From a virus: a stretch of DNA of 64,000 nt. A model generated the notes under the pieces. That model did not search any database. It was given only the letters and a program-made list of their open reading frames with translations, and had not been told where the DNA came from. The position numbers and the translations under genes are program-made. The stretch is taken from the IMG/VR virus record IMGVR_UViG_3300036846_001134, positions 2,379-66,378 of that record. One strand, written 5' to 3'. Positions 1,055-34,493 of this stretch are shown here, one piece after another; position 1 is the stretch's first letter, and the number at the start of each line of letters is the position of its first letter.

Positions 1055-1377
1055 GCGGCGGCCGCCGCCGGCAGCACCCCCTCGGCCGCCAGCCCCGCGA
1101 GGAACGCGGCCGCTTCCTGGGAGGAATGAATCACCGCCACCTGGGCACCCGCCCTTTGCCAGGCGAGGAGGCGCGCCTTCTGGAGCGGGGTAGCATCCTC
1201 GCCCGGCACCTTGAGCTCCAGCTCCAGGTGACATCCCTGTATCAACGCATACAAGTCCGGGTCGCCGGCCTGGGAGAAGGCCGTCCCGTGCCGCTTGCGA
1301 ACGACCGCGCCGGGATACTGTGCGCAAATTAACTTGACGACAGTCTGTGTGATCGAACTCTCTCGGGGTCTGGGCAT
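1051..1377 (-). CDS. VRR-NUC / PD-(D/E)XK nuclease (resolvase-like)
   Basis: MPRPRESSI...AGDPDL...LELELK...ATPLQ...AGAQVAV motif pattern. Confidence 0.75.
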   Translation of the reverse strand: MPRPRESSITQTVVKLICAQYPGAVVRKRHGTAFSQAGDPDLYALIQGCHLELELKVPGEDATPLQKARLLAWQRAGAQVAVIHSSQEAAAFLAGLAAEGVLPAAAAA

Positions 1378-2611: not shown

Positions 2612-3205
2612 ATGACGACGACGACAGCAACACCGACAGCAACACCCTCCGCCCAGGACATAGCCCGCAAGCTACAGCATGCCCTAGTCTTGGCCGGGCT
2701 CCACGTGACCGAGGGCAAGAGCGAGCAGGCCAAGGACTTACGCCTGGCCTTGAAGCTCATCACCGAGTGCCTTACCCCTGCCCAGGTGGACCAGGCCAGG
2801 GCCACGCTGAAGGCCATGAAGGCGCCCAAAGCCCCCACGGTTACCCCCGTGACCATCACCCACGTGCCCATGCAGACTGGCCGCGCCCCGCAAGCCCCTC
2901 CCAGGCTAGCGGCAGCGCCGCCAGCGCCTAAGCCGACCAGCCTTGAGTCCGCGATTAGCAGCTTTCCCCCTGTGTTCGGCTTCCGGCATTTCGCCGATTC
3001 GATCCGGTTTCGGATTAGCCCCTCCGAAAGCCTGGTTACCCCCGAGGGTAAGATCCTGCTCGCCGTCCACCGCCTGGCCAAGGGCTCGACCACGGAGAGC
3101 GCCTTGTTCGGGAAAGTCAGCCCGGAAGGACTGCGGAGTCAGGTCGCGGCATGGGCCGCGACTAAGACCGGAGAGATAAGCTATGACCAAAGAGATAAGC
3201 TATGA
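2612..3205 (+). CDS. Hypothetical early protein
   Basis: 197-aa ORF directly after P1, with AAGGA RBS and ACCCC-ATG. Confidence 0.7.
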   Translation: MTTTTATPTATPSAQDIARKLQHALVLAGLHVTEGKSEQAKDLRLALKLITECLTPAQVDQARATLKAMKAPKAPTVTPVTITHVPMQTGRAPQAPPRLAAAPPAPKPTSLESAISSFPPVFGFRHFADSIRFRISPSESLVTPEGKILLAVHRLAKGSTTESALFGKVSPEGLRSQVAAWAATKTGEISYDQRDKL

Positions 3206-3300
3206 CCAAAGAGTTACTCCAGAACGTCGCCATCGCGCTACTGATTGTAGCCCTCTGGCTAGGCTTCGCGGCTGTGGTCGCCGAATCGCTCACGCCGTGA
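3202..3300 (+). CDS. Small membrane peptide (32 aa)
   Basis: MTKELLQNVAIALLIVALWLGFAAVVAESLTP; ATGA overlap with upstream stop. Confidence 0.5.
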   Translation: MTKELLQNVAIALLIVALWLGFAAVVAESLTP

Positions 3301-3320
3301 TGGCGCTGGCGACGGGAGAT
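3280..3320 (+). ncRNA. Degenerate hammerhead remnant (3' half only)
   Basis: gccGAAT-stem III-AC-gggagat matches copies 2 and 3; no CUGANGA upstream. Confidence 0.5.
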
Positions 3321-3347
3321 CCACCGGGCATGGCATAACCCATGCGA

Positions 3348-3392
3348 TTTCACCCCCACTCGCTTGACAAAAATCGAGCGATGCGGCAAACT
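3348..3392 (+). promoter_or_regulatory. Early promoter P2
   Basis: TTTCACCCC; TTGACA at 3364-3369; 17 nt; CAAACT. Confidence 0.8.
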
Positions 3393-3440
3393 GGTTTCAG
3401 TGGCGCGAGAAACGCCCAGGACTTAGAGGAGACTTACCCC

Positions 3441-3587
3441 ATGACGAACGCTAACTTCAACGCCGATGACTTTGACCTGATGGAACAGACCGACACCTAC
3501 CTGGCCAGCCTGGACCTGGAGATGGTCTGGGAATATGCGGACGCCCATGACGACCTGGCCAACTGGCTCAAGGCGGACCTGGACTAA
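3441..3587 (+). CDS. Small acidic early protein (48 aa)
   Basis: GAGGAG RBS, ACCCC-ATG; Asp/Glu-rich. Confidence 0.65.
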   Translation: MTNANFNADDFDLMEQTDTYLASLDLEMVWEYADAHDDLANWLKADLD

Positions 3588-3642
3588 ATCCCCTGACGAT
3601 GGCCCACTGGGAAGGGGCCGAAATGCCGCGAGGCATCGGGAT
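3588..3642 (+). ncRNA. Type I hammerhead ribozyme HH1 (AUC, predicted cut after 3637)
   Basis: auccc-CUGACGA-U-ggccc/gggcc-GAAA-ugcc(GCGA)ggca-UC-gggau. Confidence 0.9.
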
Positions 3643-3668
3643 ATTTCCCACAGAGAGAAACACACACC

Positions 3669-3935
3669 ATGACGACCACACAGACCATCGACACCGACGC
3701 CTTGCTGGCCCAGCTGGAGGCCCTCCGGGCGGAGAACGACAAGCTGCGCACGCAGCCCAGGACGGCATCGCCGCTAACCCTGCGGGTAAGCGAGAAGGGC
3801 GCCTTGAGCGTCTACGGCATGGGCCGCTTCCCGGTCACGCTGTACCGCGAGCAGTGGACCAAGCTGCTCGGCTACGCCGACCAGATCCGCGAGTTCATCC
3901 GGGTGAACGACGCCAGCCTCGCGACCAAGCAGTAA
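3669..3935 (+). CDS. Conserved small phage protein (88 aa)
   Basis: Coiled N-terminus plus LRVSEKGALSVYGMGRFPVTLY. Confidence 0.75.
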   Translation: MTTTQTIDTDALLAQLEALRAENDKLRTQPRTASPLTLRVSEKGALSVYGMGRFPVTLYREQWTKLLGYADQIREFIRVNDASLATKQ

Positions 3936-4001
3936 CTCCCCTGACGATGGCCTATGGGGATAGGCCGAATGGCTCATGCCGGGAGGCATTGGCCACGGGA
4001 G
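3936..4001 (+). ncRNA. Hammerhead ribozyme HH2 (U15.1-A16.1 variant, predicted cut after 3996)
   Basis: cuccc-CUGACGA-U-ggccuau/auaggcc-GAA-U-extended stem III (GGGA loop)-A-C-gggag. Confidence 0.8.
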
Positions 4002-4012
4002 ATACCCACACC

Positions 4013-4180
4013 ATGACGACGACTTACAACGGCCTGATTCAGGCCATGACCATCATCCATGCGGCCAAGAGCGAAGTTACCCGCGAGGAAGGCATGATGA
4101 TTACCCCGCACTGGCGCATGCTGCTGCATGCCGGGGAGTACCTGAACAGGCAGGCCACTGACTTACTCCGAGGTGAGTAA
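4013..4180 (+). CDS. Small hypothetical early protein (55 aa)
   Basis: ATG downstream of GGGAG of HH2. Confidence 0.65.
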   Translation: MTTTYNGLIQAMTIIHAAKSEVTREEGMMITPHWRMLLHAGEYLNRQATDLLRGE

Positions 4181-4223
4181 GTCGCAACCGGGTGGGCTAA
4201 GTCTAGCGGCTAGGCCCACCGCG

Positions 4224-4268
4224 TTTCACCCCAAGTTGCTTGACAATTTTCGAGCGATTTGAGAAACT
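4224..4268 (+). promoter_or_regulatory. Early promoter P3
   Basis: TTTCACCCC; TTGACA at 4240-4245; 17 nt; TGn-GAAACT; preceded by GC hairpin ~4191-4220. Confidence 0.8.
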
Positions 4269-4294
4269 GGAAATCGAGCGAGGAGATACACCCC

Positions 4295-4510
4295 ATGAGT
4301 AAGACGAAAGACAAGACGGTAACCTGGAGCGAAAGCTCAAGCGCCTACTGGTTCGACTGCGGCTACCGCACGGCGTGCTGCGGCGACGGCGTGGATATGT
4401 TCTTCACCGAGGACGGTGAGGCTATCAGTCCTGGCACGCCGGAATTCGAGGCGTGCATGGACGCGGCATGCCTGGACCCGGAGACGTGGGAGGCTTACTT
4501 TGGCAGTTAG
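4295..4510 (+). CDS. Small acidic Cys-containing protein
   Basis: GAGGAG RBS, ACCCC-ATG. Confidence 0.7.
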   Translation: MSKTKDKTVTWSESSSAYWFDCGYRTACCGDGVDMFFTEDGEAISPGTPEFEACMDAACLDPETWEAYFGS

Positions 4511-4514
4511 CTAA

Positions 4515-4568
4515 CTCCCCTGACGATGGCCCACGGGGGTGGGCCGAATCGCCGCGAGGCGACGGGAG
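4515..4568 (+). ncRNA. Hammerhead ribozyme HH3 (U15.1-A16.1 variant, predicted cut after 4563)
   Basis: cuccc-CUGACGA-U-ggcccac(gggg)gugggcc-GAA-U-cgcc(GCGA)ggcg-A-C-gggag. Confidence 0.8.
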
Positions 4569-4591
4569 ATACCCACAAGGAGAGTAACCCC

Positions 4592-4852
4592 ATGACGAAC
4601 ACTAACGAACCAATCCGTAGGGCGACCTACGCCAAGATGCGTGCCGCGCTCAAAGCCGCGCTTGAGGACCTGGAGATCCTGAGCGGCGACAAGGTCGGCC
4701 CGAGCGGCGTAAGCTGGCAGGACGTGGCCGGAACCTGCGCCACTAACTTCCAGGTGCTGGTCTGGAACCTGGAACGGGCGCGGCAAGGCTATGCCGAGCC
4801 TAACATCACCTTCCCGTCGCCTGCCGAATGCCTGGAGGAGAGCCATGAGTAA
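4592..4852 (+). CDS. Hypothetical early protein
   Basis: AAGGAG RBS, ACCCC-ATG. Confidence 0.7.
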   Translation: MTNTNEPIRRATYAKMRAALKAALEDLEILSGDKVGPSGVSWQDVAGTCATNFQVLVWNLERARQGYAEPNITFPSPAECLEESHE

Positions 4853-4997
4853 CGGCGCCTGGTACGACTACACCTTGCAGGCCTGGGTGGTGGACGGGCG
4901 CTATGTCCCCTGCGGCCACCCGGCCAGCATGAACTGCGCCTGCTACGGCAGGCTGCATGCCGGGGAGACGGCGACCGAGCGGGAGGAGGGCCAGTGA
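4845..4997 (+). CDS. Small Cys/His protein
   Basis: GGAGGAG RBS; YDYTLQAWVVDGRYVPCGHP..C.CYG. Confidence 0.65.
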   Translation: MSNGAWYDYTLQAWVVDGRYVPCGHPASMNCACYGRLHAGETATEREEGQ

Positions 4998-5152
4998 TCC
5001 GCGACTCTATCGCCTCCGCTTGCACATGGCTATGGGTCGCCTCCCTGATAGTAGCGGCGTTCCTGCCGCACGGCCATTGGACCTTCGACTACGCCTGCTA
5101 TGCGAGCTTCGTCGGTTTCATGGGCTGGATTGTCGCTATGTTGAGCCGCTAA
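4994..5152 (+). CDS. Small two-TM membrane protein (52 aa)
   Basis: GTG start overlapping upstream TGA; hydrophobic; stop abuts HH4. Confidence 0.55.
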   Translation: MIRDSIASACTWLWVASLIVAAFLPHGHWTFDYACYASFVGFMGWIVAMLSR

Positions 5153-5153
5153 C

Positions 5154-5201
5154 CCCCTGACGAGGCCGTGCGAGTCGGCCGAAACGCCGTGAGGCGTAGG
5201 G
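5154..5201 (+). ncRNA. Hammerhead ribozyme HH4 (GUA, predicted cut after 5198)
   Basis: ccc-CUGACGA-ggccg(ugcgagu)cggcc-GAAA-cgcc(GUGA)ggcg-UA-ggg. Confidence 0.9.
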
Positions 5202-5216
5202 AGAAAACCGGACCCG

Positions 5217-5261
5217 TTTCACCCCAAATTGCTTGACAAAAATCGAGCGATTTGCGATACT
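5217..5261 (+). promoter_or_regulatory. Early promoter P4
   Basis: TTTCACCCC; TTGACA at 5233-5238; 17 nt; TGn-GATACT. Confidence 0.85.
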
Positions 5262-5320
5262 GGGTTCAACGGCGCGAACAAGCGCCGCCAACGTTCAGAC
5301 GAGAGATAAGGATACACCCC

Positions 5321-6154
5321 ATGAATACGATCAACATGCGTCACAGCGTCCGTTCCATGACGGCGCTCTCTAACGACCAGCTTAGGGCGGTTGCCCCGAG
5401 CGTGTTTGCCATGGAGCCATGGCACCGGATGAGCGACAAGTACGCCTTCATCCCCACCATCGCGGTCATCGAGCGGATGCGGGAAGAGGGCTTCCAGCCC
5501 GTGCAGGCCATGCAGTCGAGGACCCGCATCGAGGGCAAGGGGGACTTCACCAAGCACCTGATCCGCTTCCGCGACATGCGCCAGGGGGACCAGCCCTTGA
5601 CCCGCCAGCTGGGCGTGGTCTACCCCGAGCTGGTCCTGACCAACAGCCACGACGGGGCCAGCGCCTATAAGCTCGATAGCGGGCTGTTCCGCCTGGTCTG
5701 CACCAACGGCATGGTGGTCGGCGACGGCGTGGTCAATCACATCAGCGTGCGCCACACCGGAAGCCCGGACGGCGTGATCAACGCGAGCTTTGAGGTCATC
5801 GACCAGATGCCCAAGGTGATCGACAGCGTGGAGAACTTCCAGCGGCTGCGGCTAGAGGCGCCGCAGGCCGAGGTGTTCGCCACCGCCGCGCTTCAACTGC
5901 GCTACGACGAGGGGGAGGCGCCTATCACTCCCGCCCAGGTGCTGCAACCGCGCCGCATGGAGGACTCTACGCCCACCCTGTGGAACACCTTCAACCGCGC
6001 CCAGGAAGCCCTGGTCGGCGGCGGTATCCGGGGCCGCAGCGCCGAGACGCGCCGTCGCCTGCGGACGCGCCCGGTGGAAGGCATCACCGAGAACACCAAG
6101 CTGAACAAGGCCCTCTGGACCTTGGCCGAGGAGATGCGCAAGCTGATGAGCTAA
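5321..6154 (+). CDS. DUF932/DUF945 family protein
   Basis: SDKYAFIPT, TKHLIRFR, LTNSHDG, LFRLVCTNGMV, LWNTFNRAQE, KLNKALW motifs typical of this phage/plasmid family. Confidence 0.85.
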   Translation: MNTINMRHSVRSMTALSNDQLRAVAPSVFAMEPWHRMSDKYAFIPTIAVIERMREEGFQPVQAMQSRTRIEGKGDFTKHLIRFRDMRQGDQPLTRQLGVVYPELVLTNSHDGASAYKLDSGLFRLVCTNGMVVGDGVVNHISVRHTGSPDGVINASFEVIDQMPKVIDSVENFQRLRLEAPQAEVFATAALQLRYDEGEAPITPAQVLQPRRMEDSTPTLWNTFNRAQEALVGGGIRGRSAETRRRLRTRPVEGITENTKLNKALWTLAEEMRKLMS

Positions 6155-6202
6155 CCGGGAAGGGGGCCGCGAGGCCCCCACGCCCAACCTAAAGGAAAAC
6201 CC

Positions 6203-6502
6203 ATGGAACAAATTAAACCCTACGAACTAAGCCTGGGCATCGAGCACCTGATGACGGGCGCGGAATTGGTCAGCGAGACTGGGCGCAGCTTTCACTTCGA
6301 GTACGAGAGCCCGAGCGTGGTGCGCGTCACCTGCCGGGAGCCCTTCGCCTGCTACTGGAGGCCGCAAGGCCAGGACAGTGCGCCCATCAAGCTGAATGCC
6401 ACCTTGGCCGACCACGGCCTGACCCTGGAGTTCAGCGAGAGCGAGGTGCGATTCTTCGCCCGCGACATGGCCGAGGCCATGCGGGCCAAGTTCAACAGCT
6501 AA
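6203..6502 (+). CDS. Hypothetical early protein
   Basis: AAGGA RBS; stop abuts HH5. Confidence 0.7.
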   Translation: MEQIKPYELSLGIEHLMTGAELVSETGRSFHFEYESPSVVRVTCREPFACYWRPQGQDSAPIKLNATLADHGLTLEFSESEVRFFARDMAEAMRAKFNS

Positions 6503-6503
6503 C

Positions 6504-6551
6504 CCCCTGACGAGGCCGTGCGAGTCGGCCGAAACGCCGCGAGGCGTCGGG
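6504..6551 (+). ncRNA. Hammerhead ribozyme HH5 (GUC, predicted cut after 6548)
   Basis: Canonical core; stem II as in HH4; GCGA loop III. Confidence 0.9.
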
Positions 6552-6574
6552 ACATATTCCCAAGGACCAACCCC

Positions 6575-6871
6575 ATGACGACGACGATAGAACTCACCCC
6601 GAGCCTGACCTCCATGCGGATCATCGCCTGGACCGACGAGGCCGTATACCTGAGACTGCCGCTCGAACTACAGCGCGACTGCGGCGGCTGTAGCTGCGAG
6701 CAATGCAAGAAAAATCCGAAACTCGCGAAATGGGACACGCTGGCGGTGCCCGTCAAGGGCAAGCCGCGCGGATCGTACAGCGAGAACCACTCCTGGACCG
6801 TCCACATGCCGGACGGCGCGGTGGCGGGCTTCATGGAGTACATGAAGAACAAGGCCAAGGAGAAAGCCTGA
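6575..6871 (+). CDS. Cys-rich hypothetical early protein
   Basis: CGGCSCEQC motif; ACCCC-ATG. Confidence 0.7.
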   Translation: MTTTIELTPSLTSMRIIAWTDEAVYLRLPLELQRDCGGCSCEQCKKNPKLAKWDTLAVPVKGKPRGSYSENHSWTVHMPDGAVAGFMEYMKNKAKEKA

Positions 6872-6990
6872 TGGCCGACAGCGATAGCGGCTGCGCACTG
6901 GTGGGCTGCGGCATCGTGGGCTACTTCGCGTTCTGGGCCGTGGTGATCGTTGCCGCAACCTTGCTCGTGAAGTTCGTCTGGACCTGGTAG
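6871..6990 (+). CDS. Small membrane peptide (39 aa)
   Basis: TGATG coupling; hydrophobic stretch. Confidence 0.55.
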   Translation: MADSDSGCALVGCGIVGYFAFWAVVIVAATLLVKFVWTW

Positions 6991-6999
6991 CCCATCAAC

Positions 7000-7047
7000 C
7001 CCCTGACGAGGCCGTGAGAGTCGGCCGAAACGCCGCGAGGCGTCGGG
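7000..7047 (+). ncRNA. Hammerhead ribozyme HH6 (GUC, predicted cut after 7044)
   Basis: Canonical core; loop II ugagagu. Confidence 0.9.
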
Positions 7048-7070
7048 AGAGAAAGGAATCCCATTACCCC

Positions 7071-7310
7071 ATGACCGCAAACAAAACCTACGCGCTTACC
7101 GATACCTTGCGCACGCCGGCACGCGAGCTTCACCCCTTCCCCGGCCTGTTCTACTACTCGGGCTTTGGCATGGGCCACTACTACTCGACCGACGGCACGG
7201 CCCACTGGGCGGCATCGAGCGAGGCCAAGGACCTGGCCGCGAGCGAGGGCGTCAAGTACGTCTACGTGGACGCGCTCGAAGGCTACCAGGCCGTCTACCT
7301 GGGCGACTAG
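7071..7310 (+). CDS. Hypothetical early protein
   Basis: AAAGGA RBS, ACCCC-ATG. Confidence 0.7.
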   Translation: MTANKTYALTDTLRTPARELHPFPGLFYYSGFGMGHYYSTDGTAHWAASSEAKDLAASEGVKYVYVDALEGYQAVYLGD

Positions 7311-7315
7311 GCGCA

Positions 7316-7359
7316 TTTCACCCCAAGCACTTGACAAAATTCGAGCAACGTGAGAAACT
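7316..7359 (+). promoter_or_regulatory. Early promoter P5
   Basis: TTTCACCCC; TTGACA at 7331-7336; 17 nt; TGn-GAAACT. Confidence 0.85.
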
Positions 7360-7381
7360 GGAAATCGAAAGGAAACACCCC

Positions 7382-7672
7382 ATGAACTGGAGCGTACCCG
7401 CTACCGACTACGCGGTAATCGTCAAGATTGCCCAACGCGCCACGGCCCTCGCCAGGCGCTACAACGTGAACTACCCGCAGGGCACCGCCCTGATGGACCT
7501 GACGGCCTGCCACGCCAATGCCTTCCGCCTGCGCGTGGAGGAGTTGCTCAAGGCCGATGACTCTAACTTCGCCCATGACGTGTTCGGCATCCGCCGCCAC
7601 CTCGACCGCGAGACGGGCAAGCTCGCGGATTGCTTCGTGCCGCGCTTCGCGAGCAAGGAGGCGGTGAACTAG
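7382..7672 (+). CDS. Conserved phage protein (DUF6874-like)
   Basis: MDLTACHAN..LLKADDSNFAHDVFGIRRHLDRETGKL..CFVPRF; family name recalled, not searched. Confidence 0.6.
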   Translation: MNWSVPATDYAVIVKIAQRATALARRYNVNYPQGTALMDLTACHANAFRLRVEELLKADDSNFAHDVFGIRRHLDRETGKLADCFVPRFASKEAVN

Positions 7673-7674
7673 CC

Positions 7675-7842
7675 ATGCGGAAGTACATCATCGTGCGCAA
7701 CACCGACCGTCCCGGTCACTGCCATGTCGAGATCCACAAGTACATCGGCCAGGAGGAAGGCATCCCGTGCTATGAGCACTACCGGACGATGAAGAACTTC
7801 CCCGAGGCGGCGGACCTGATCCGGCGTCTGGAAGCCGCCTAA
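7675..7842 (+). CDS. Small hypothetical protein
   Basis: GGAGG upstream; stop abuts HH7. Confidence 0.6.
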   Translation: MRKYIIVRNTDRPGHCHVEIHKYIGQEEGIPCYEHYRTMKNFPEAADLIRRLEAA

Positions 7843-7843
7843 C

Positions 7844-7902
7844 CCCCTGACGAGCCCGTGAAAGTCGGCGCGAAACGCCCCGTCGAGATGACGGCGCGTC
7901 GG
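7844..7902 (+). ncRNA. Hammerhead ribozyme HH7 (GUC, predicted cut after 7899)
   Basis: Canonical core; bulged stem II; stem III extended by ccguc/gacgg. Confidence 0.88.
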
Positions 7903-7926
7903 GACATTATCCCAAGGACATACCCC

Positions 7927-8313
7927 ATGACAGAACGATTCTTTATCGACAGGCCCGTACAGACGGGCGCAATGAGCCAGCCGCGCGACCTGGACGACGC
8001 CGTCTTCCCCACTTACGCGGAGATGGACGGCAACCTGCTCAAGTGGAGCGGCAGCTTCCCCCTGCCCGAGGTGGGCGCCCACGTCTACATCACCATGAAC
8101 AACATCGGCTGGGCCTACGTGGAAGGCTACTTTGCGAGCGCTGGCTACCTGGGCGTGATGACTCGTGCCACCAACCCGCCCGCGTGGCTGCGCAGGCAGC
8201 AGCGCGAGCGCGCCAACTGCCCCAACTCGCCCGAGTGGGTGCGCAAGGGCATCGGCTGCGAGTTCGGGACCGAGATCGCGCTGACCAAACCCAGGCGCAA
8301 GGAGGTGGCATAG
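7927..8313 (+). CDS. Hypothetical early protein
   Basis: AAGGA RBS, ACCCC-ATG. Confidence 0.7.
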   Translation: MTERFFIDRPVQTGAMSQPRDLDDAVFPTYAEMDGNLLKWSGSFPLPEVGAHVYITMNNIGWAYVEGYFASAGYLGVMTRATNPPAWLRRQQRERANCPNSPEWVRKGIGCEFGTEIALTKPRRKEVA

Positions 8314-8315
8314 CC

Positions 8316-8579
8316 ATGACGATAGACCAAGCCTGCGAGAGAGCCCGCCAGCTGCGCGGCAAGCAATTCCTGATGCCCCAGGACCGGGACGCGCTGGATA
8401 GCCTGATGGGCGCGGCGCTGGTGGCCCAGCGCCTGATGGCCCGCCTGGAAACCCTGGAGTCGCTGACGGGCGCGCTCCAGGATACCAACGAAAGCTCCGA
8501 CGGTGGCGAGAGCTACATGGTGATGGGCAATGTGGACACGGCCCTATTGATCGAGGTTGGGCTGCGGAGGGCGAAATGA
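8316..8579 (+). CDS. Hypothetical protein
   Basis: GGAGGT RBS. Confidence 0.65.
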   Translation: MTIDQACERARQLRGKQFLMPQDRDALDSLMGAALVAQRLMARLETLESLTGALQDTNESSDGGESYMVMGNVDTALLIEVGLRRAK

Positions 8580-8890
8580 CCAAGACCATCGACATCACCC
8601 CCAACTTCGCGCATCTGTTCGCGATGTTCATAGAGCAGGCCCGCACCCAGGGCCTGCACATCACCCGCTACCTGCCGCTAGAGGAGGTGGTCAACAAGCC
8701 CGCCACGCTCGCGGCCGTGCTGCGCGGCTTTGAAGGCCCTATCGTGGCGCTCAACATCGCCGCGAGCGCCATGACCACGGCCGAGGAGGTCGAGCAGCTG
8801 CGCAGCGTGCTGAGCGAGTTGGCGAGCTACCTCGACCAGACCGCAGGCCGCCTGGAGAAGCAGGCCGAGGGGGAGGACGGCAAGCGATGA
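8576..8890 (+). CDS. Hypothetical protein
   Basis: ATGA overlap, GGAGG RBS. Confidence 0.7.
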   Translation: MTKTIDITPNFAHLFAMFIEQARTQGLHITRYLPLEEVVNKPATLAAVLRGFEGPIVALNIAASAMTTAEEVEQLRSVLSELASYLDQTAGRLEKQAEGEDGKR

Positions 8891-9033
8891 GTTGGTGCAT
8901 GTATTGCTGCCTCGCGCTTCATCCAACGATGTTGACTGGGTATTGCCTGACCCGGTGCAAGTGCGACAACTGTGGCCGTACGGCGGATCTGGCGATGGTG
9001 AAACCTAAGATGAGCACCGAGGAAAAGCAGTAA
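8887..9033 (+). CDS. Small Cys-rich (zinc-ribbon-like) protein (48 aa)
   Basis: CMYC...CKCDNC; ATGA overlap; stop abuts HH8. Confidence 0.6.
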   Translation: MSWCMYCCLALHPTMLTGYCLTRCKCDNCGRTADLAMVKPKMSTEEKQ

Positions 9034-9034
9034 C

Positions 9035-9083
9035 CCCCTGACGAGGCCGTGAAAGTCGCGCCGAAACGCCGTGAGGCGTCGGG
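9035..9083 (+). ncRNA. Hammerhead ribozyme HH8 (GUC, predicted cut after 9080)
   Basis: Canonical core; loop II ugaaagu; bulged stem II. Confidence 0.9.
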
Positions 9084-9108
9084 ACACATTCCCAAGGAAA
9101 CAAACCCC

Positions 9109-9288
9109 ATGACAACGACAACCTACGTGGCCGTGCAGCAGACCGGAAAGCGCACGACCTTCGAGCGCGAGGAGGAGGCCAGGACCTTCGCCGAGCGCTG
9201 CCGGAGAGACGACATGTTCACCTACATCCTGGAAGTCAAGACGCGGTTCCTGGCGAGCTATTGCCCCGAGCCGGCGGAGGTGAAATAG
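9109..9288 (+). CDS. Small hypothetical protein
   Basis: AAGGA RBS, ACCCC-ATG. Confidence 0.65.
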   Translation: MTTTTYVAVQQTGKRTTFEREEEARTFAERCRRDDMFTYILEVKTRFLASYCPEPAEVK

Positions 9289-9290
9289 CC

Positions 9291-9545
9291 ATGCCAAAAC
9301 CCAAGGACCTGATTGCCTACATCGTCGCCAAGGTGCGGATCGCGCCGCGCGATGGCGAAAAGTACGACTTCGACCATGTGGCCGGGTATATCGAGGGCGC
9401 GCTCTCGCGGGCCATGCGGGAGAACGATCCCGAGGACGACGTGGTGGACCTGATTACATTCCACCAGAACCGCGCGCCGCTTGAAACCGCCGCGCTCGAC
9501 AGGCTGTTGAGCACCGGGATGATCGACGAGGAGACGAAATCATGA
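9291..9545 (+). CDS. Hypothetical protein
   Basis: GGAGGTGA RBS. Confidence 0.7.
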   Translation: MPKPKDLIAYIVAKVRIAPRDGEKYDFDHVAGYIEGALSRAMRENDPEDDVVDLITFHQNRAPLETAALDRLLSTGMIDEETKS

Positions 9546-9775
9546 CCACCACCGAGAAACTGATCCAGTCCCAGGTCAAGCGCCTGGGCGAGAGCTTCGA
9601 GCGCCTCAAGGTCTGGACCGACTTCAACTATCAGGCCACGCGCGCCTGTCCCGCCAACCCCGAGCAGATCCTGCGCGAGAGCAACCGCGTCGCGCAGCTG
9701 GCCGAGGGTATCGAGCACCTGATCGAGCGCCGCGCCAAGGAGATAGCGGCGGCCAAGAAGGTGAAGCAGCCATGA
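9542..9775 (+). CDS. Hypothetical protein
   Basis: ATGA overlap. Confidence 0.7.
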   Translation: MTTTEKLIQSQVKRLGESFERLKVWTDFNYQATRACPANPEQILRESNRVAQLAEGIEHLIERRAKEIAAAKKVKQP

Positions 9776-10101
9776 GCAAACTGATTGGCAAGCGCTTCCG
9801 CACCCTGATTCCTGATTACGAGGAGGACGAGGAGTACGGCGAGGTGACGCATCCCATAGGCAGCGAGTTCATTGTCGTCGCCAACCTGGACTACCAGTGG
9901 GGCGAGCCGGGGGACAAGGGCTACGGCTACGCGCACAGCGTGTCCTGGCAGGGGACCGCCCTGCCGGGAAGCTGGCAGGGCGGCAAGAAGAAGCTGTTCG
10001 TCGTCACCGGGACGCCCGTGCCAGCCGAGGGTATGTGGTGCATCTGGACCGACGTCGAGATTGCCCGCGACGCCGTGGAGGTGACGGAACCAACCCCCTG
10101 A
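9772..10101 (+). CDS. Hypothetical protein
   Basis: ATGA overlap; its TGA stop is the UGA of the HH9 core. Confidence 0.7.
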   Translation: MSKLIGKRFRTLIPDYEEDEEYGEVTHPIGSEFIVVANLDYQWGEPGDKGYGYAHSVSWQGTALPGSWQGGKKKLFVVTGTPVPAEGMWCIWTDVEIARDAVEVTEPTP

Positions 10102-10143
10102 CGAGCCCGTGAAAGTCGGTGCGAAACGCCGTGAGGCGTCGGG
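10095..10143 (+). ncRNA. Hammerhead ribozyme HH9 (GUC, predicted cut after 10140)
   Basis: ccc-CUGACGA-gcccg(ugaaagu)cggugc-GAAA-cgcc(GUGA)ggcg-UC-ggg. Confidence 0.88.
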
Positions 10144-10147
10144 AGCA

Positions 10148-10192
10148 TTTCACCCCGCTGCGCTTGACAAAATTCAAGCGCAATGCGAAACT
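10148..10192 (+). promoter_or_regulatory. Early promoter P6
   Basis: TTTCACCCC; TTGACA at 10164-10169; 17 nt; TGn-GAAACT. Confidence 0.85.
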
Positions 10193-16727: not shown

Positions 16728-18269
16728 TCAGTAGTACGCGCGCGGCGCGGGCGGCTCGTACTCTTCCTCGCTCTCGTCGCTCGCGATGCGGATCAGCCCG
16801 CCCTGGCGCAGCCGCGCGAGGCCGTGGACCGCCGCATCGTGCAGGTCGTCATACTGGCCGTTGGGAAACGAGGCCATCTCCTCCCGCACCTCTTCCACCC
16901 AGCGCCGCCCGAGCGGCGCCCAGATGGTCCCGGTGCTGAACAGGTCAGCCACGGCGTTGGTCCGGGTGATCTTGTCACTGCCCCGCACCGGCACGGTGTC
17001 GCTCACCGGGATACCCATGCGCCAGAGCTCCTGTTGCAGGGGCTTGCCGGTGGCCCGGCCCTCGACCAGCAGGCAGTCCGGCGCCCACTGCTCGTAGAGG
17101 CGGCGCGCCTGCTGCTTGAGCTCGGGGAAATTCATGCGGCCCGCCCAGGCGTCGAGCAGCATGATGCCGGTCATGATGCGCGGCGGGTCGCTGCGGTTCT
17201 TGTAGCGGAAGAGGCCCCAGGTAATGCAGGCGCTGCGGTTGGAATTCTGCTTGTCGCTGAAGGCCGTGTCCCAGGACTGCACGATGAACTCGCAGGCCGG
17301 CGGGTCGGGCTCGCGCCAGTCCATCCACCACTCGCGCTTGATGATGGCGCCCTCTTCCGAGGTAGGCGACTGCTGGTATTGCGCCATCCAGCGGCCGATG
17401 GGCAAGGTCGCCTTGGTGCGCAAGAGCTCTTCAATCGGCCAGTACTCGGGCCACAGCGGCTCGCCGCTTGGCAGGATGGCCGGCAGCTCGATCACCTCCC
17501 ACTGCTCGCCCGAGTCCTCCTCGATGGCCTGTTGCAGCAGCATGCCGGTGAGGTCGCGCACGCCCCACCGGGTCATCACGATCAGGATGGCGGCGCCGGG
17601 TTGCAGGCGCTGGCGGGGGCCGGCCAGGTACCACTCCCACACCTTGGTGAAATTCTGGTCGGCGTTCTTGAGCACGTCCTGCTCGCTGTGGGGGTCGTCC
17701 AGGATTACCAGGTCGCCTCCGCGCCCGGCCGCGCCGCCGGTGGTGCCGATGGCGAAGAACTCCCCGCCCTGCTGGGTGCTCCAGCGGTGGGTCGCCTTAC
17801 TGTCCTTCGATAGCGTGATGCCGGGGAAGATCTCCTGGTACTCGGGCGACATGATCAGATTGCGCATCTTGCGGCCGAAGCCGCTCGACAACTCGACCTT
17901 GTGACTGCCCTCCAGAATCTTGGTCCTGGGGTGGCGGCCCAGGTACCAGGTGGGCAGCAGGAACGATGTGAACTCGCTCTTGGTGTGGCGCGGCGCCATG
18001 TTGATGATGCAACGCTTGAGCTCTCCCCGGTCAATCCGTTCAAAAGTCTCGGCCATCACCTGGTGGTGGCGCCCGCTGATGAAGTCCGGCCAGACGCGCT
18101 TGACGAACGCAAGGAAGCTCGTGCGCGCGCTCTCCACGTCCGTGCCCGTGCCGCCGAACAGCTTGGCCATGTAGCCGCGCATGGCCCGCTGTTTCTCGGG
18201 CGGCAGATCGGGGAAATAGCGCTCCAGAAATTCGATCTCCTGCGCGGGCGTGGGCTTGGTGACGGGCAT
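16728..18269 (-). CDS. terL: Terminase large subunit
   Basis: Walker A INMAPRHTKS, Walker B LVILDDP, IVMTRW, QSWDTAF, FPNGQYDDLHDA nuclease motif. Confidence 0.95.
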   Translation of the reverse strand: MPVTKPTPAQEIEFLERYFPDLPPEKQRAMRGYMAKLFGGTGTDVESARTSFLAFVKRVWPDFISGRHHQVMAETFERIDRGELKRCIINMAPRHTKSEFTSFLLPTWYLGRHPRTKILEGSHKVELSSGFGRKMRNLIMSPEYQEIFPGITLSKDSKATHRWSTQQGGEFFAIGTTGGAAGRGGDLVILDDPHSEQDVLKNADQNFTKVWEWYLAGPRQRLQPGAAILIVMTRWGVRDLTGMLLQQAIEEDSGEQWEVIELPAILPSGEPLWPEYWPIEELLRTKATLPIGRWMAQYQQSPTSEEGAIIKREWWMDWREPDPPACEFIVQSWDTAFSDKQNSNRSACITWGLFRYKNRSDPPRIMTGIMLLDAWAGRMNFPELKQQARRLYEQWAPDCLLVEGRATGKPLQQELWRMGIPVSDTVPVRGSDKITRTNAVADLFSTGTIWAPLGRRWVEEVREEMASFPNGQYDDLHDAAVHGLARLRQGGLIRIASDESEEEYEPPAPRAYY

Positions 18270-33158: not shown

Positions 33159-34493
33159 TTAGTTCACCGGCCCCTGCGGCTTTTGCCCCAAAAGCTGGTC
33201 ATCCAACTGGTTCACCAGGACGCGGCGGCGGTCCAAACTCGTCTTGGTGTACTTCATGGTCATGGCCGCGTCGCCATGGCCCATCATCGCCACGCGGTCG
33301 CTAAGCTCCATGCCCATTTCATCCAAAATGGTGGTGTGAGTTCTCCGCAAAACATGCCATGACAACCACGGCATGTCGAGCTTTTTGCCGATTGTTTTCA
33401 GCTTGCGATTCGCGAGGTTGTGCGCGTCAACCGGCGTCCCCTTGCGCGACACCAGCACGTAGTCATCTGGCGACGTGTACTTTTCGCGCTGCTTCAGCTC
33501 GGCGAGAATCGAGAGCATAATCGGCGGAATGGGCAACGCCCGCTTGCGGCTTTTGCGCTTGGTCGTATCGAGCTTGCCCAGGTTCCACTGCTTCCGCACC
33601 AGGACCGTGAAAGGCGGAAGCGTCTCGCCGTCCACCGTCGCGAAGCGATCCGTAATATTCACGCGCTTCCATTGCAGCCCGCAAATTTCTGCGATGTTCA
33701 TCGAGGTCAGAATCGAGATGACGGAAATGTGGTATTCGGGATACTGCATCTGCCCGAGTACCGTCTTCGCCTCTTCGAGAGTGAGCGCGCGCAGGTCCTT
33801 CACCGGCTCAACCGCAGGCGTGCGTACCGACTCAGCCGGATTGTCGCCTCTAAAAAAGCGCTTCTCTTTGGCATAGGTGACAATCGCCGAACAAACCGTT
33901 CGGATGTGATTCACCGTCGCCGGAGAATAATCGCGCCCCATCGCGGCGGCGATCACCCGCTGCACATGGCTCTGGTCCAGATCGCGAAGACGAACGTCAT
34001 CCAGGTAAGGCCACCCTTTAATTTCGACGCGCGCATTCTTGTACTTCTTGGCGTAGCCCTCGCTCTTTTTTCCAAACGCACGCACGACCCGGTCTGGAGT
34101 CAGCACGTCCTTCAGCCGGCTCCGGTAAAAAAGCCGCGTGTGCGCCTTCTTCATCATGACGTGCTCGGGAATAAAAAACTGTTCCACAAACTGCGCCACG
34201 GTCATGACGCTTTGCGGCGTGGTCGTGTTCTGATCGAGCTTCGATAGGTAGTCTTCCCACCCGATGCGCTTGGCCTCTTTCTGCGTCAGCCTCTCCGGCC
34301 CGGTACATGGACCGATACGCACGCGCGGCGCCCACTCGCGTGCGAGGCTGCCGTCCGGCTTGATGACCTCCTCGCGCCAGCGCAGCATCCACCAGTCGCC
34401 GCGCTTCTCCAAATTCCCACTCTGTTGCAATCGTCGTCTGCCCAAGTTTTCTACCTCGGGCCACATCGTAACAGGTTCAAATATATTTTTCAT
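33159..34493 (-). CDS. int: Tyrosine integrase
   Basis: N-terminal arm-binding domain, HVLR, MMGH, KY; adjacent to attP. Confidence 0.92.
   Translation of the reverse strand: MKNIFEPVTMWPEVENLGRRRLQQSGNLEKRGDWWMLRWREEVIKPDGSLAREWAPRVRIGPCTGPERLTQKEAKRIGWEDYLSKLDQNTTTPQSVMTVAQFVEQFFIPEHVMMKKAHTRLFYRSRLKDVLTPDRVVRAFGKKSEGYAKKYKNARVEIKGWPYLDDVRLRDLDQSHVQRVIAAAMGRDYSPATVNHIRTVCSAIVTYAKEKRFFRGDNPAESVRTPAVEPVKDLRALTLEEAKTVLGQMQYPEYHISVISILTSMNIAEICGLQWKRVNITDRFATVDGETLPPFTVLVRKQWNLGKLDTTKRKSRKRALPIPPIMLSILAELKQREKYTSPDDYVLVSRKGTPVDAHNLANRKLKTIGKKLDMPWLSWHVLRRTHTTILDEMGMELSDRVAMMGHGDAAMTMKYTKTSLDRRRVLVNQLDDQLLGQKPQGPVN

What the first reader, a model, noticed from the sequence alone, without database searches (positions are those of the whole stretch)
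3936..4568. Two hammerheads with a swapped core pair (U15.1-A16.1) and an extra U after A9
Seen: HH2 and HH3 read GAA-U...A-C instead of GAA-A...U-H, a compensated double change. It is shared by two copies with different stems II and III, and by the 3280 remnant. HH1-3 also carry an extra U between A9 and G10.1. Known: A15.1-U16.1 is nearly invariant (NUH rule), and single-base insertions after A9 are tolerated in some natural hammerheads. Inference: these are rare natural variants, perhaps tuned for slower or conditional cleavage.
Basis: partly seen in the sequence, partly recalled or inferred. Interest (0 to 1): 0.72.

Follow-up and report, generated by a model that had tools for sequence, protein, structure and literature searches.

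The report
Phage hammerheads with swapped core pair
Two of nine self-cleaving hammerhead RNAs that sit between the early genes of a soil phage carry a flipped core base pair and an extra U; the variant recurs in related phages, but both oddities are already in the literature.

Summary
The window is an IMG/VR soil phage with nine type I hammerheads on the + strand between small early genes. HH3941 and HH4520 read GAA-U...A-C (U15.1-A16.1). HH3593, HH3941 and HH4520 have an extra U after A9. A broken copy at 3246-3326 also reads GAAU...AC.

The variant is not decay. Pattern scans found six more U-A copies in six other contigs. All have the extra U, a GGGG loop II and a CUCCC/GGGAG stem I. Stems II and III differ through compensatory changes. 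Both window copies fold as hammerheads at minimum free energy.

It is not new as a kind. Perreault et al. 2011 (PMC3088659) reported a natural U15.1-A16.1 hammerhead that cleaves slowly. They also described hammerhead clusters flanking phage genes and speculated about conditional activity. An extra nucleotide after A9 is known from a viroid hammerhead. In my scans 32 of 36 complete extra-U folds were otherwise canonical.

Verdict: new members of a known variant kind, probably active inter-gene mRNA processors. Activity and any "tuning" are untested. Rfam 15 detects none of the nine at gathering score.

The parts
3936..4001 (+). HH3941: type I hammerhead with extra U (3948) after A9 and U15.1 (3970)-A16.1 (3995). 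Predicted cleavage is after C17 (3996). It has an 11-bp stem III with one mismatch.
   Evidence: Sequence. Model R1 22.1 bits and R2 55.4 bits. The minimum-free-energy fold equals the hammerhead three-way junction, z -3.48.
4515..4568 (+). HH4520: type I hammerhead with extra U (4527) and U15.1 (4549)-A16.1 (4562). Predicted cleavage is after C17 (4563).
   Evidence: Sequence. R1 46.2 bits and R2 75.5 bits. The minimum-free-energy fold equals the hammerhead junction, z -2.87.
3589..3641 (+). HH3593: type I hammerhead with extra U (3600) but canonical A15.1 (3623)-U16.1 (3636). Predicted cleavage is after C17 (3637).
   Evidence: 46.8 bits; hammerhead fold, z -2.05.
3246..3326 (+). Broken hammerhead copy. 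The 5' core is CUGGCUA, GAAU lies at 3283-3286 and AC-GGGAG at 3312-3318. It overlaps the 32-codon hydrophobic ORF 3202-3300.
   Evidence: Model alignment (E 0.0093; 21.1 bits). No hammerhead fold. ORF.
5148..10153 (+). Six canonical type I hammerheads without the insertion and with A15.1-U16.1. CTGA starts at 5157, 6507, 7003, 7847, 9038 and 10098. They are the comparison set within the same early region.
   Evidence: 72-88 bits.
4013..4180 (+). 55-codon gene that starts 16 nt after the HH3941 cleavage site. The only Shine-Dalgarno-like run before its AUG is the stem I 3' strand GGGAG.
4592..4852 (+). 86-codon gene that starts 28 nt after the HH4520 cleavage site and has its own AAGGAG.

Best explanation
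HH3941 and HH4520 are working type I hammerhead ribozymes. They belong to a small, conserved clade of soil-phage hammerheads in which the core-closing pair of stem III is U15.1-A16.1, so cleavage follows GAC rather than GUC, and a U is inserted after A9.

Like the seven other hammerheads in this temperate phage's early region, each sits directly after the stop codon of one small gene and 12-28 nt before the next start codon. Self-cleavage would cut the polycistronic early transcripts into single-gene or few-gene mRNAs. The downstream mRNA would then begin with 5'-OH-GGGAG.

The swap keeps the Watson-Crick pair and is a tolerated, inherited variant, most simply from one origin within the extra-U subfamily. 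It probably costs some catalytic rate, and that cost may be offset by the subfamily's long stems: 5-bp stem I and 7-bp stem II capped by GGGG.

Shown: the sequence, the fold, recurrence elsewhere, compensatory changes and the gene context. Inferred: cleavage itself, its rate and its effect on expression.
For: Fold and core:
- The core is otherwise intact, and the minimum-free-energy fold is exactly the hammerhead junction.

Recurrence:
- There are eight U-A copies in seven contigs: the window (2), viral records G001 and G002, a MAG contig L051, and metagenome contigs L056, L065 and L082.
- In G001 the U-A copy is the only match of model R2 in a 61-kb record rated 95% complete.

Compensatory change:
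- On the ten extra-U copies, 95.9% of cells pair.
- 7 of 17 pairs change on both sides.
- The covariation score is 0.367 against 0.120 in shuffles (0 of 500 reach it) and at most 0.082 for slid partners.
- Position 15.1-16.1 is always a Watson-Crick pair: 8 U-A, 2 A-U, no mismatch. The search patterns allowed A-A and U-U.

Context:
- Flanking genes are unrelated between loci, yet the placement after a stop codon and before a start codon is kept.
- G001, G002 and G003 share a terminase-like protein with the window at 63%, 61% and 84% identity, so hammerhead arrays mark this phage group.

Literature:
- A natural U15.1-A16.1 hammerhead self-cleaves, 'albeit less efficiently' (PMC3088659, section 8, read whole).
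- Clustered hammerheads flank phage genes, and three tandem arrangements cleaved in vitro (same paper, passages).
- Hammerheads cleave NHH triplets, and a tertiary motif raised cleavage of a UAA site more than 100-fold, to about 0.5 per min (PMC3923133, passages).
- At the position after A9 of the CChMVd hammerhead, a U raised the rate 3-4-fold (PMC3705267, passage).
Against: - No cleavage was measured. No RNA data exist for this phage; only one DNA run holds it.
- Core invariance within the clade is not independent evidence. My search patterns fixed the core, the first four pairs of stem II and GGGAG, so only the distal stems, loops and flanks were free to vary.
- The published natural U-A variant was slow, and earlier mutants at 15.1/16.1 lost at least 10-fold, so activity in the cell could be marginal.
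- The closest relative, G003 (84% terminase identity, 8 hammerheads), has no U-A or extra-U copy at R2 E <= 0.1. The variant is therefore dispensable for this phage group.
- All U-A copies are one sequence clade, so eight copies may represent few independent events.
Confidence: 0.7

Rival explanations
1. The swap is adaptive. U15.1-A16.1, perhaps together with the extra U, was selected to slow cleavage or make it conditional, so that the first two early transcription units are processed later or only under certain ionic or factor conditions.
For: - The variant persists across seven contigs with stem compensation.
- It sits only in the two promoter-proximal units of the window.
- In 5 of 8 extra-U copies that have a downstream ORF, the stem I 3' strand GGGAG is the only Shine-Dalgarno-like run before the AUG. 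Cleavage rate could therefore set translation of the next gene.
- The published natural U-A variant is slow.
Against: - Persistence shows tolerance, not advantage.
- A-U and U-A copies occupy equivalent junctions: HH3593 versus HH3941, and the two copies in G002.
- The nearest relative lacks the variant.
- No kinetic data exist.
Confidence: 0.2
2. The two copies are catalytically dead relics. They are kept only as structured RNA, for example as 3'-end stabilisers, insulators between genes or recombination joints for gene cassettes.
For: - A15.1-U16.1 is the most conserved pair of the consensus.
- A broken copy lies 600 nt upstream, so decay does occur in this region.
- Flanking genes differ between loci, as expected for cassette joints.
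Against: - Every other core position is intact in both copies.
- The pair stays Watson-Crick in all 10 extra-U copies.
- A natural U-A hammerhead was shown to cleave, and NAH sites are cleavable.
- A purely structural element would not need CUGANGA and GAA. This point is weakened because my patterns fixed those bases.
Confidence: 0.1

Closest known systems
Natural U15.1-A16.1 hammerhead variant tested by Perreault et al. 2011 (PLoS Comput Biol 7:e1002031; PMC3088659)
   Same: Same core deviation: a swapped but still paired 15.1-16.1. The tested variants listed for its Figure S6 come from phage, prophage or mobile-element contexts. The same speculation is made that slow phage variants may be conditional.
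   Different: I could not see which organism carried the published variant (PaP3, Clostridium scindens or Solibacter usitatus are the candidates in the Figure S6 legend) or its sequence, because supplements are closed. The clade described here combines the swap with an extra U after A9, a GGGG loop II and a CUCCC/GGGAG stem I, and it is documented in seven contigs with covariation. Whether it is the same lineage as the published one is unknown.
Clustered hammerheads flanking genes in prophages, such as the Agrobacterium tumefaciens triple arrangement around ardA (Perreault et al. 2011, Figure 3 passages)
   Same: Several hammerheads lie in close proximity between single genes or short gene blocks of an early or anti-restriction-type region. 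The window has a DUF932 gene in the array. RNA processing into gene-length mRNAs was proposed for those clusters.
   Different: This record has nine copies in 6.5 kb, all type I, interleaved with repeated promoters. None reaches any Rfam 15 gathering score.
Extra nucleotide between A9 and G10.1 in the CChMVd (+) hammerhead (De la Pena and Flores 2001, J Biol Chem 276:34586; seen only as cited and summarised in PMC1636495 and PMC3705267)
   Same: A single inserted nucleotide at the same core position. It is tolerated, and a U at that position raised the trans-cleavage rate 3-4-fold.
   Different: The viroid has an A, which has a second role in viroid conformation. Here the base is a U in a phage mRNA context, and the insertion is common among bacterial type I hammerheads.
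NHH cleavage rule for engineered hammerheads (Kore et al. 1998, seen as cited in PMC3923133 and PMC8495972)
   Same: Cleavage after N-A-H triplets when position 15.1 pairs with A16.1. Activity is low in minimal ribozymes and is rescued by tertiary stabilising motifs.
   Different: Those are trans-acting laboratory constructs. Here the arrangement is natural, cis-acting and evolutionarily maintained.

Membership tests
Hammerhead ribozyme, type I (strict consensus) | Three-way junction with stems II and III closed by loops and stem I open | tested here: met
   The minimum-free-energy folds of 3932-4003 and 4511-4570 are exactly this junction. Compensatory changes occur in stems II and III across 10 copies.
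Hammerhead ribozyme, type I (strict consensus) | Core C3 U4 G5 A6 N7 G8 A9 and G12 A13 A14 | tested here: met
   CUGACGA and GAA are present in both copies. One U is inserted between A9 and G10.1.
Hammerhead ribozyme, type I (strict consensus) | A15.1-U16.1 pair (NUH triplet at the cleavage site) | tested here: not met
   Both copies read U15.1-A16.1, giving the triplet GAC. This is the deviation under study. Perreault et al. admitted such hits to their alignments only once activity was measured (Methods passage).
Hammerhead ribozyme, type I (strict consensus) | H (not G) at position 17 | tested here: met
   C3996 and C4563.
Hammerhead ribozyme, type I (strict consensus) | Match to an Rfam hammerhead model at gathering score | tested here: not met
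   There are 0 gathering matches in the whole window. At E <= 10 only HH5157 matches, to Hammerhead_3, at 16.1 bits. The six canonical copies fail as well, so this reflects model coverage, not the swap.
Hammerhead ribozyme, type I (strict consensus) | Site-specific self-cleavage | not testable with these tools
   No RNA run holds the phage. A bench assay is needed.
Natural U15.1-A16.1 hammerhead variants (Perreault et al. 2011) | Otherwise intact core with a Watson-Crick U15.1-A16.1 | tested here: met
   All eight U-A copies keep the pair.
Natural U15.1-A16.1 hammerhead variants (Perreault et al. 2011) | A genetic context typical of hammerheads (phage or prophage intergenic region) | tested here: met
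   The copies lie between small early genes of a temperate phage record with an integrase and a terminase-like gene.
Natural U15.1-A16.1 hammerhead variants (Perreault et al. 2011) | Sequence relatedness to the published example | not testable with these tools
   Figure S6 and Dataset S1 are supplements and are closed. My relaxed type I scan of phage PaP3 found nothing.

The most novel reading that the evidence does not exclude
The U-A copies form a discrete, stable hammerhead subclass rather than a tolerated blemish. In this reading the swapped pair, the U after A9, the GGGG loop II (which may pair with the conserved CCC 2-4 nt beyond stem I) and the long stems work together to give efficient cleavage at GAC. 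Because stem I's 3' strand GGGAG is the only ribosome-binding-like sequence for several downstream genes, cleavage would unmask translation, which would make the ribozyme a kinetic switch for early phage genes.
Probability: 0.2. Interest if true: 0.5.

Novelty: new member of a known kind. Interest (0 to 1): 0.3.

Why it matters
The A15.1-U16.1 pair is treated as essential in most hammerhead search rules, so hits without it are usually discarded. A variant with the flipped pair that persists in at least seven phage-type contigs with compensated stems supports relaxing that rule. It also offers natural sequences for asking how the active site accommodates the swap.

In practice, Rfam 15 detects none of the nine hammerheads in this phage, so arrays like this go unannotated in viral metagenomes. 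The biological role of phage hammerhead arrays is still open, and this compact nine-copy array with two core types would be a convenient test case.

Tried and rejected
- **Rfam.** No usable hit, so I built my own models: R1 from the six canonical copies and R2 from all nine.
- **MAFFT alignment of all nine.** It misaligned the insertion and the long stem III, so I replaced it with model-guided alignments.
- **U-A pattern in viral contigs.** 12 of the 14 matching loci have no stems and were rejected as chance.
- **Generalised U-A pattern.** The 6 new loci have no model match at the site and were rejected as chance.
- **L018/G011.** This is an extra-U 5' half with no convincing stem III (20 bits). 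I treated it as degenerate and did not count it.
- **Class-level pattern search with 2 mismatches around the MAG holding L051.** 173 of 401 genomes 'matched', and the reversed-pattern controls also hit. This is noise and was not used.
- **Core conservation test (Fisher p 0.004).** Rejected as evidence, because the search patterns fixed the core.
- **PaP3 scan.** I wanted to learn which published phage carries the swap. My type I scan found nothing, so the question stays open.
- **Sequencing runs.** No RNA holder is listed, and the single DNA run may be the source sample. No reads were laid.
- **tblastx of the U-A loci against the window.** Mostly weak compositional hits. Only short shared domains appear, at window 1156-1338 and 9781-9921.
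- **Alternative register.** I considered reading the U after GAA as an insertion with a C15.1-G16.1 pair. I rejected it because it puts G at 16.1 and leaves a C-C mismatch at the base of stem I.
- **Not done.** No structure prediction, protein homology search or complex prediction was needed.

Full report
**What is there.**
The window is bases 2379-66378 of a 66,378-base IMG/VR virus record rated 100% complete. It carries an integrase-family gene (33159-34493), a weak terminase-like gene (16728-18269, minus strand) and a DUF932 gene (5321-6154).

Between 3589 and 10153 the + strand holds nine type I hammerhead motifs, with CTGA at 3593, 3941, 4520, 5157, 6507, 7003, 7847, 9038 and 10098. A family pattern matches 9 times forward, 0 times reverse and 0 times in the reversed-pattern control. 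A covariance model built from the six canonical copies (R1) recovers all nine at E <= 1.5e-4 when every position of the window is scored.

Each motif starts at or just after the stop codon of a small gene. It ends 12-28 nt before the next start codon, or before a repeated TTGACA promoter.

**The observation.**
- HH3941 and HH4520 read GAA-U, stem III, A-C. This is U15.1-A16.1 with C17, so the cleavage triplet is GAC.
- HH3593, HH3941 and HH4520 carry a U between A9 and G10.1.
- The six downstream copies have neither feature.
- The model also aligns 3246-3326 (E 0.0093; 21.1 bits with R2). That stretch keeps GAAU...AC-GGGAG, but its 5' core reads CUGGCUA and it does not fold as a hammerhead. 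It overlaps a 32-codon hydrophobic ORF. It is a decayed copy of the same type.

The two intact U-A copies fold at minimum free energy into exactly the hammerhead junction, with z-scores of -3.48 and -2.87. The third match has no stems.

**Is the variant kept elsewhere?**
- *U-A pattern in viral contigs.* A pattern for the U-A form matched 14 viral contigs. Only 2 have hammerhead stems.
  - G001 is 61 kb. Its U-A copy is its only R2 match.
  - G002 is 60 kb. It has one U-A copy and one A-U copy, both with the extra U.
- *Matched A-U pattern.* This gave 41 matches in 37 contigs, of which 20 in 16 contigs pass the same stem test. In this narrow family, outside the window's own record, the swap therefore accounts for 2 of 22 verified folds.
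- *Extra-U pattern in genomes and metagenomes.* A pattern that allowed A or U at both positions found 14 matches in 11 genome contigs and 28 matches in 27 metagenome contigs. Of these 42 matches, 36 are complete type I folds: 32 with A-U and 4 with U-A. The four are L051, on a 1.8-kb contig binned with a Candidatus Sulfotelmatobacter MAG, and L056, L065 and L082.
- *Generalised U-A pattern.* This added only chance matches in viral contigs.

The U-A form is thus documented in eight copies on seven contigs.

**Shared and variable features of the U-A copies.**
All eight share the extra U, a GGGG loop II, a CUCCC/GGGAG stem I and a CCC run 2-4 nt beyond stem I. Their distal stem II triplets are CAC/GUG, UAU/AUA, GGC/GCC, GCU/AGC, AAU/AUU and UAC/GUA, and their stems III also differ.

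On the ten extra-U copies:
- 95.9% of cells pair.
- 7 of 17 pairs change on both sides.
- The covariation score is 0.367 against 0.120 for shuffles (0 of 500 reach it) and at most 0.082 when partners are slid.
- One row, L056, is misaligned by two columns on its 3' side, which lowers these figures slightly.

Position 15.1-16.1 is Watson-Crick in all ten, although the patterns allowed A-A and U-U.

Caveat: the patterns fixed the core, the first four pairs of stem II and GGGAG. The invariance of those bases is therefore by construction and is not evidence of selection.

**Context in relatives.**
The terminase-like protein is 84% identical in G003, 63% in G001 and 61% in G002, so these are one phage group.
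- G003 has eight hammerheads. All are canonical, and none has the extra U.
- G003 is syntenic with the window from the small membrane protein before HH5157 through the DUF932 gene.
- The proteins flanking the U-A copies in other contigs show no similarity to those in the window.

The ribozyme module therefore recurs at equivalent junctions (after a stop codon, before a start codon) between unrelated genes.

**What is known.**
- *Perreault et al. 2011 (PMC3088659).* I read section 8 whole and passages elsewhere.
  - A natural sequence with U15.1-A16.1 self-cleaves, 'albeit less efficiently'.
  - Earlier mutants at these positions lost at least 10-fold.
  - Multiple hammerheads often flank single genes or short blocks in prophages.
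  - Three tandem arrangements cleaved in vitro.
  - Their tested core variants came from PaP3, Bcep176 (A6C), Clostridium scindens and Solibacter usitatus. Which one carries the swap is shown only in Figure S6, which I could not open.
- *Literature search.* A full-text search for hammerhead with U15.1 and A16.1 returned only that paper.
- *Extra nucleotide after A9.* This is known from the CChMVd (+) hammerhead. There the extra A lowers the rate moderately, and a U in its place raises it 3-4-fold (passages in PMC1636495 and PMC3705267). The primary paper, De la Pena and Flores 2001, was seen only as a citation.
- *NHH rule.* Hammerheads cleave NHH triplets (Kore et al. 1998, as cited). A selected tertiary motif raised cleavage of a UAA site more than 100-fold, to about 0.5 per min (PMC3923133 passages; PMC8495972 passage).
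- *Open question.* A 2017 review still lists the role of prokaryotic hammerheads as open (PMC6155905 passage).

**Most likely mechanism.**
The two copies are active self-cleavers. Together with the other seven they cut the early polycistronic transcripts between genes. The swap preserves the pair and is inherited within the extra-U subfamily.

That subfamily has longer helices (5-bp stem I, 7-bp stem II with a tetraloop) than the canonical copies in the window. The canonical copies have a 3-bp stem I, and HH6507 does not even reach the hammerhead fold at minimum free energy. This may offset a catalytic penalty.

I put this reading at 0.7. The adaptive 'slow or conditional' reading is not excluded (0.2). 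The idea that the copies are dead, structure-only relics is unlikely (0.1).

One observation could link cleavage to translation. In 5 of 8 extra-U copies with a downstream ORF, the only Shine-Dalgarno-like run before the AUG is the stem I 3' strand GGGAG, 7-13 nt upstream. This is inference only.

**Verdict.**
However, the extra U is common, the swap is already described with activity data, and tuning is untested.

These are new members of a known variant kind. What this work adds is a defined clade with covariation support, and the note that current Rfam models miss the whole array.

Noticed in passing
window 1-64000 (hammerheads at 3589-10153): Rfam 15 reports no family at gathering score anywhere in the window. 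At E <= 10 only HH5157 matches, weakly, to the type III model (16.1 bits). This phage type I hammerhead family is not covered by current models.
   Followed up: yes
window 3172-3213: A 19-nt unit (agagataagctatgaccaa) is repeated in tandem at 3172-3190 and 3191-3209, followed by a partial third copy. It duplicates an ATG (3183 and 3202) just upstream of the broken hammerhead copy.
   Followed up: no
window 4583-4632 and the start codons at 3442, 4592, 6541, 7049, 7882 and 9065: Many early genes start with ACCCCAUGAC(G/A), which resembles the hammerhead 5' half ACCCCCUGACGA. Model R1 even gives a weak match at 4583-4632 (15.4 bits, E 0.019). The cause of the resemblance is unknown.
   Followed up: no
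window 3997-4015; L016 1559-1576; L051; L065: In 5 of 8 extra-U hammerheads with a downstream ORF, the stem I 3' strand GGGAG is the only Shine-Dalgarno-like run before the AUG, 7-13 nt upstream. Cleavage could free it.
   Followed up: partly
window 3608-3613 with 3645-3650; GGGG loops at 3956-3959 and 4535-4538 with CCC at 4005-4007 and 4572-4574: Loop II of the extra-U copies could pair with a C-run 2-4 nt beyond stem I. In HH3593 this is UGGGAA with UUCCCA. All ten extra-U copies keep a G-run loop and a downstream CCC, but there is no covariation to test the pairing.
   Followed up: partly
window 3350-3400, 4220-4265, 5215-5260, 10130-10175: A near-identical promoter-like repeat (TTTCACCCC, then TTGACA, then a 17-nt spacer) divides the hammerhead array into several transcription units.
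   Followed up: no
G003 (IMG/VR record, loci L021, L027, L032-L038): This is the closest relative found, with 84% terminase-like identity and 90% DUF932 identity. It has eight canonical hammerheads within about 7 kb at one end of its record and none of the extra-U type.
   Followed up: partly
loci L045-L081 (Oscillospiraceae, Clostridiales and other Firmicutes MAGs; gut metagenome contigs): Many canonical type I hammerheads begin CUGACGA-U-GGCC, that is, with the same extra U after A9. Some occur twice within about 1 kb on one contig (L047, L049, L055, L071).
   Followed up: partly
window 4181-4225: A GC-rich inverted repeat (GGGTGGGC...GCCCACC) follows the gene at 4013-4180 and precedes the next promoter. 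It is a likely terminator that ends the first hammerhead-bearing unit.
   Followed up: no
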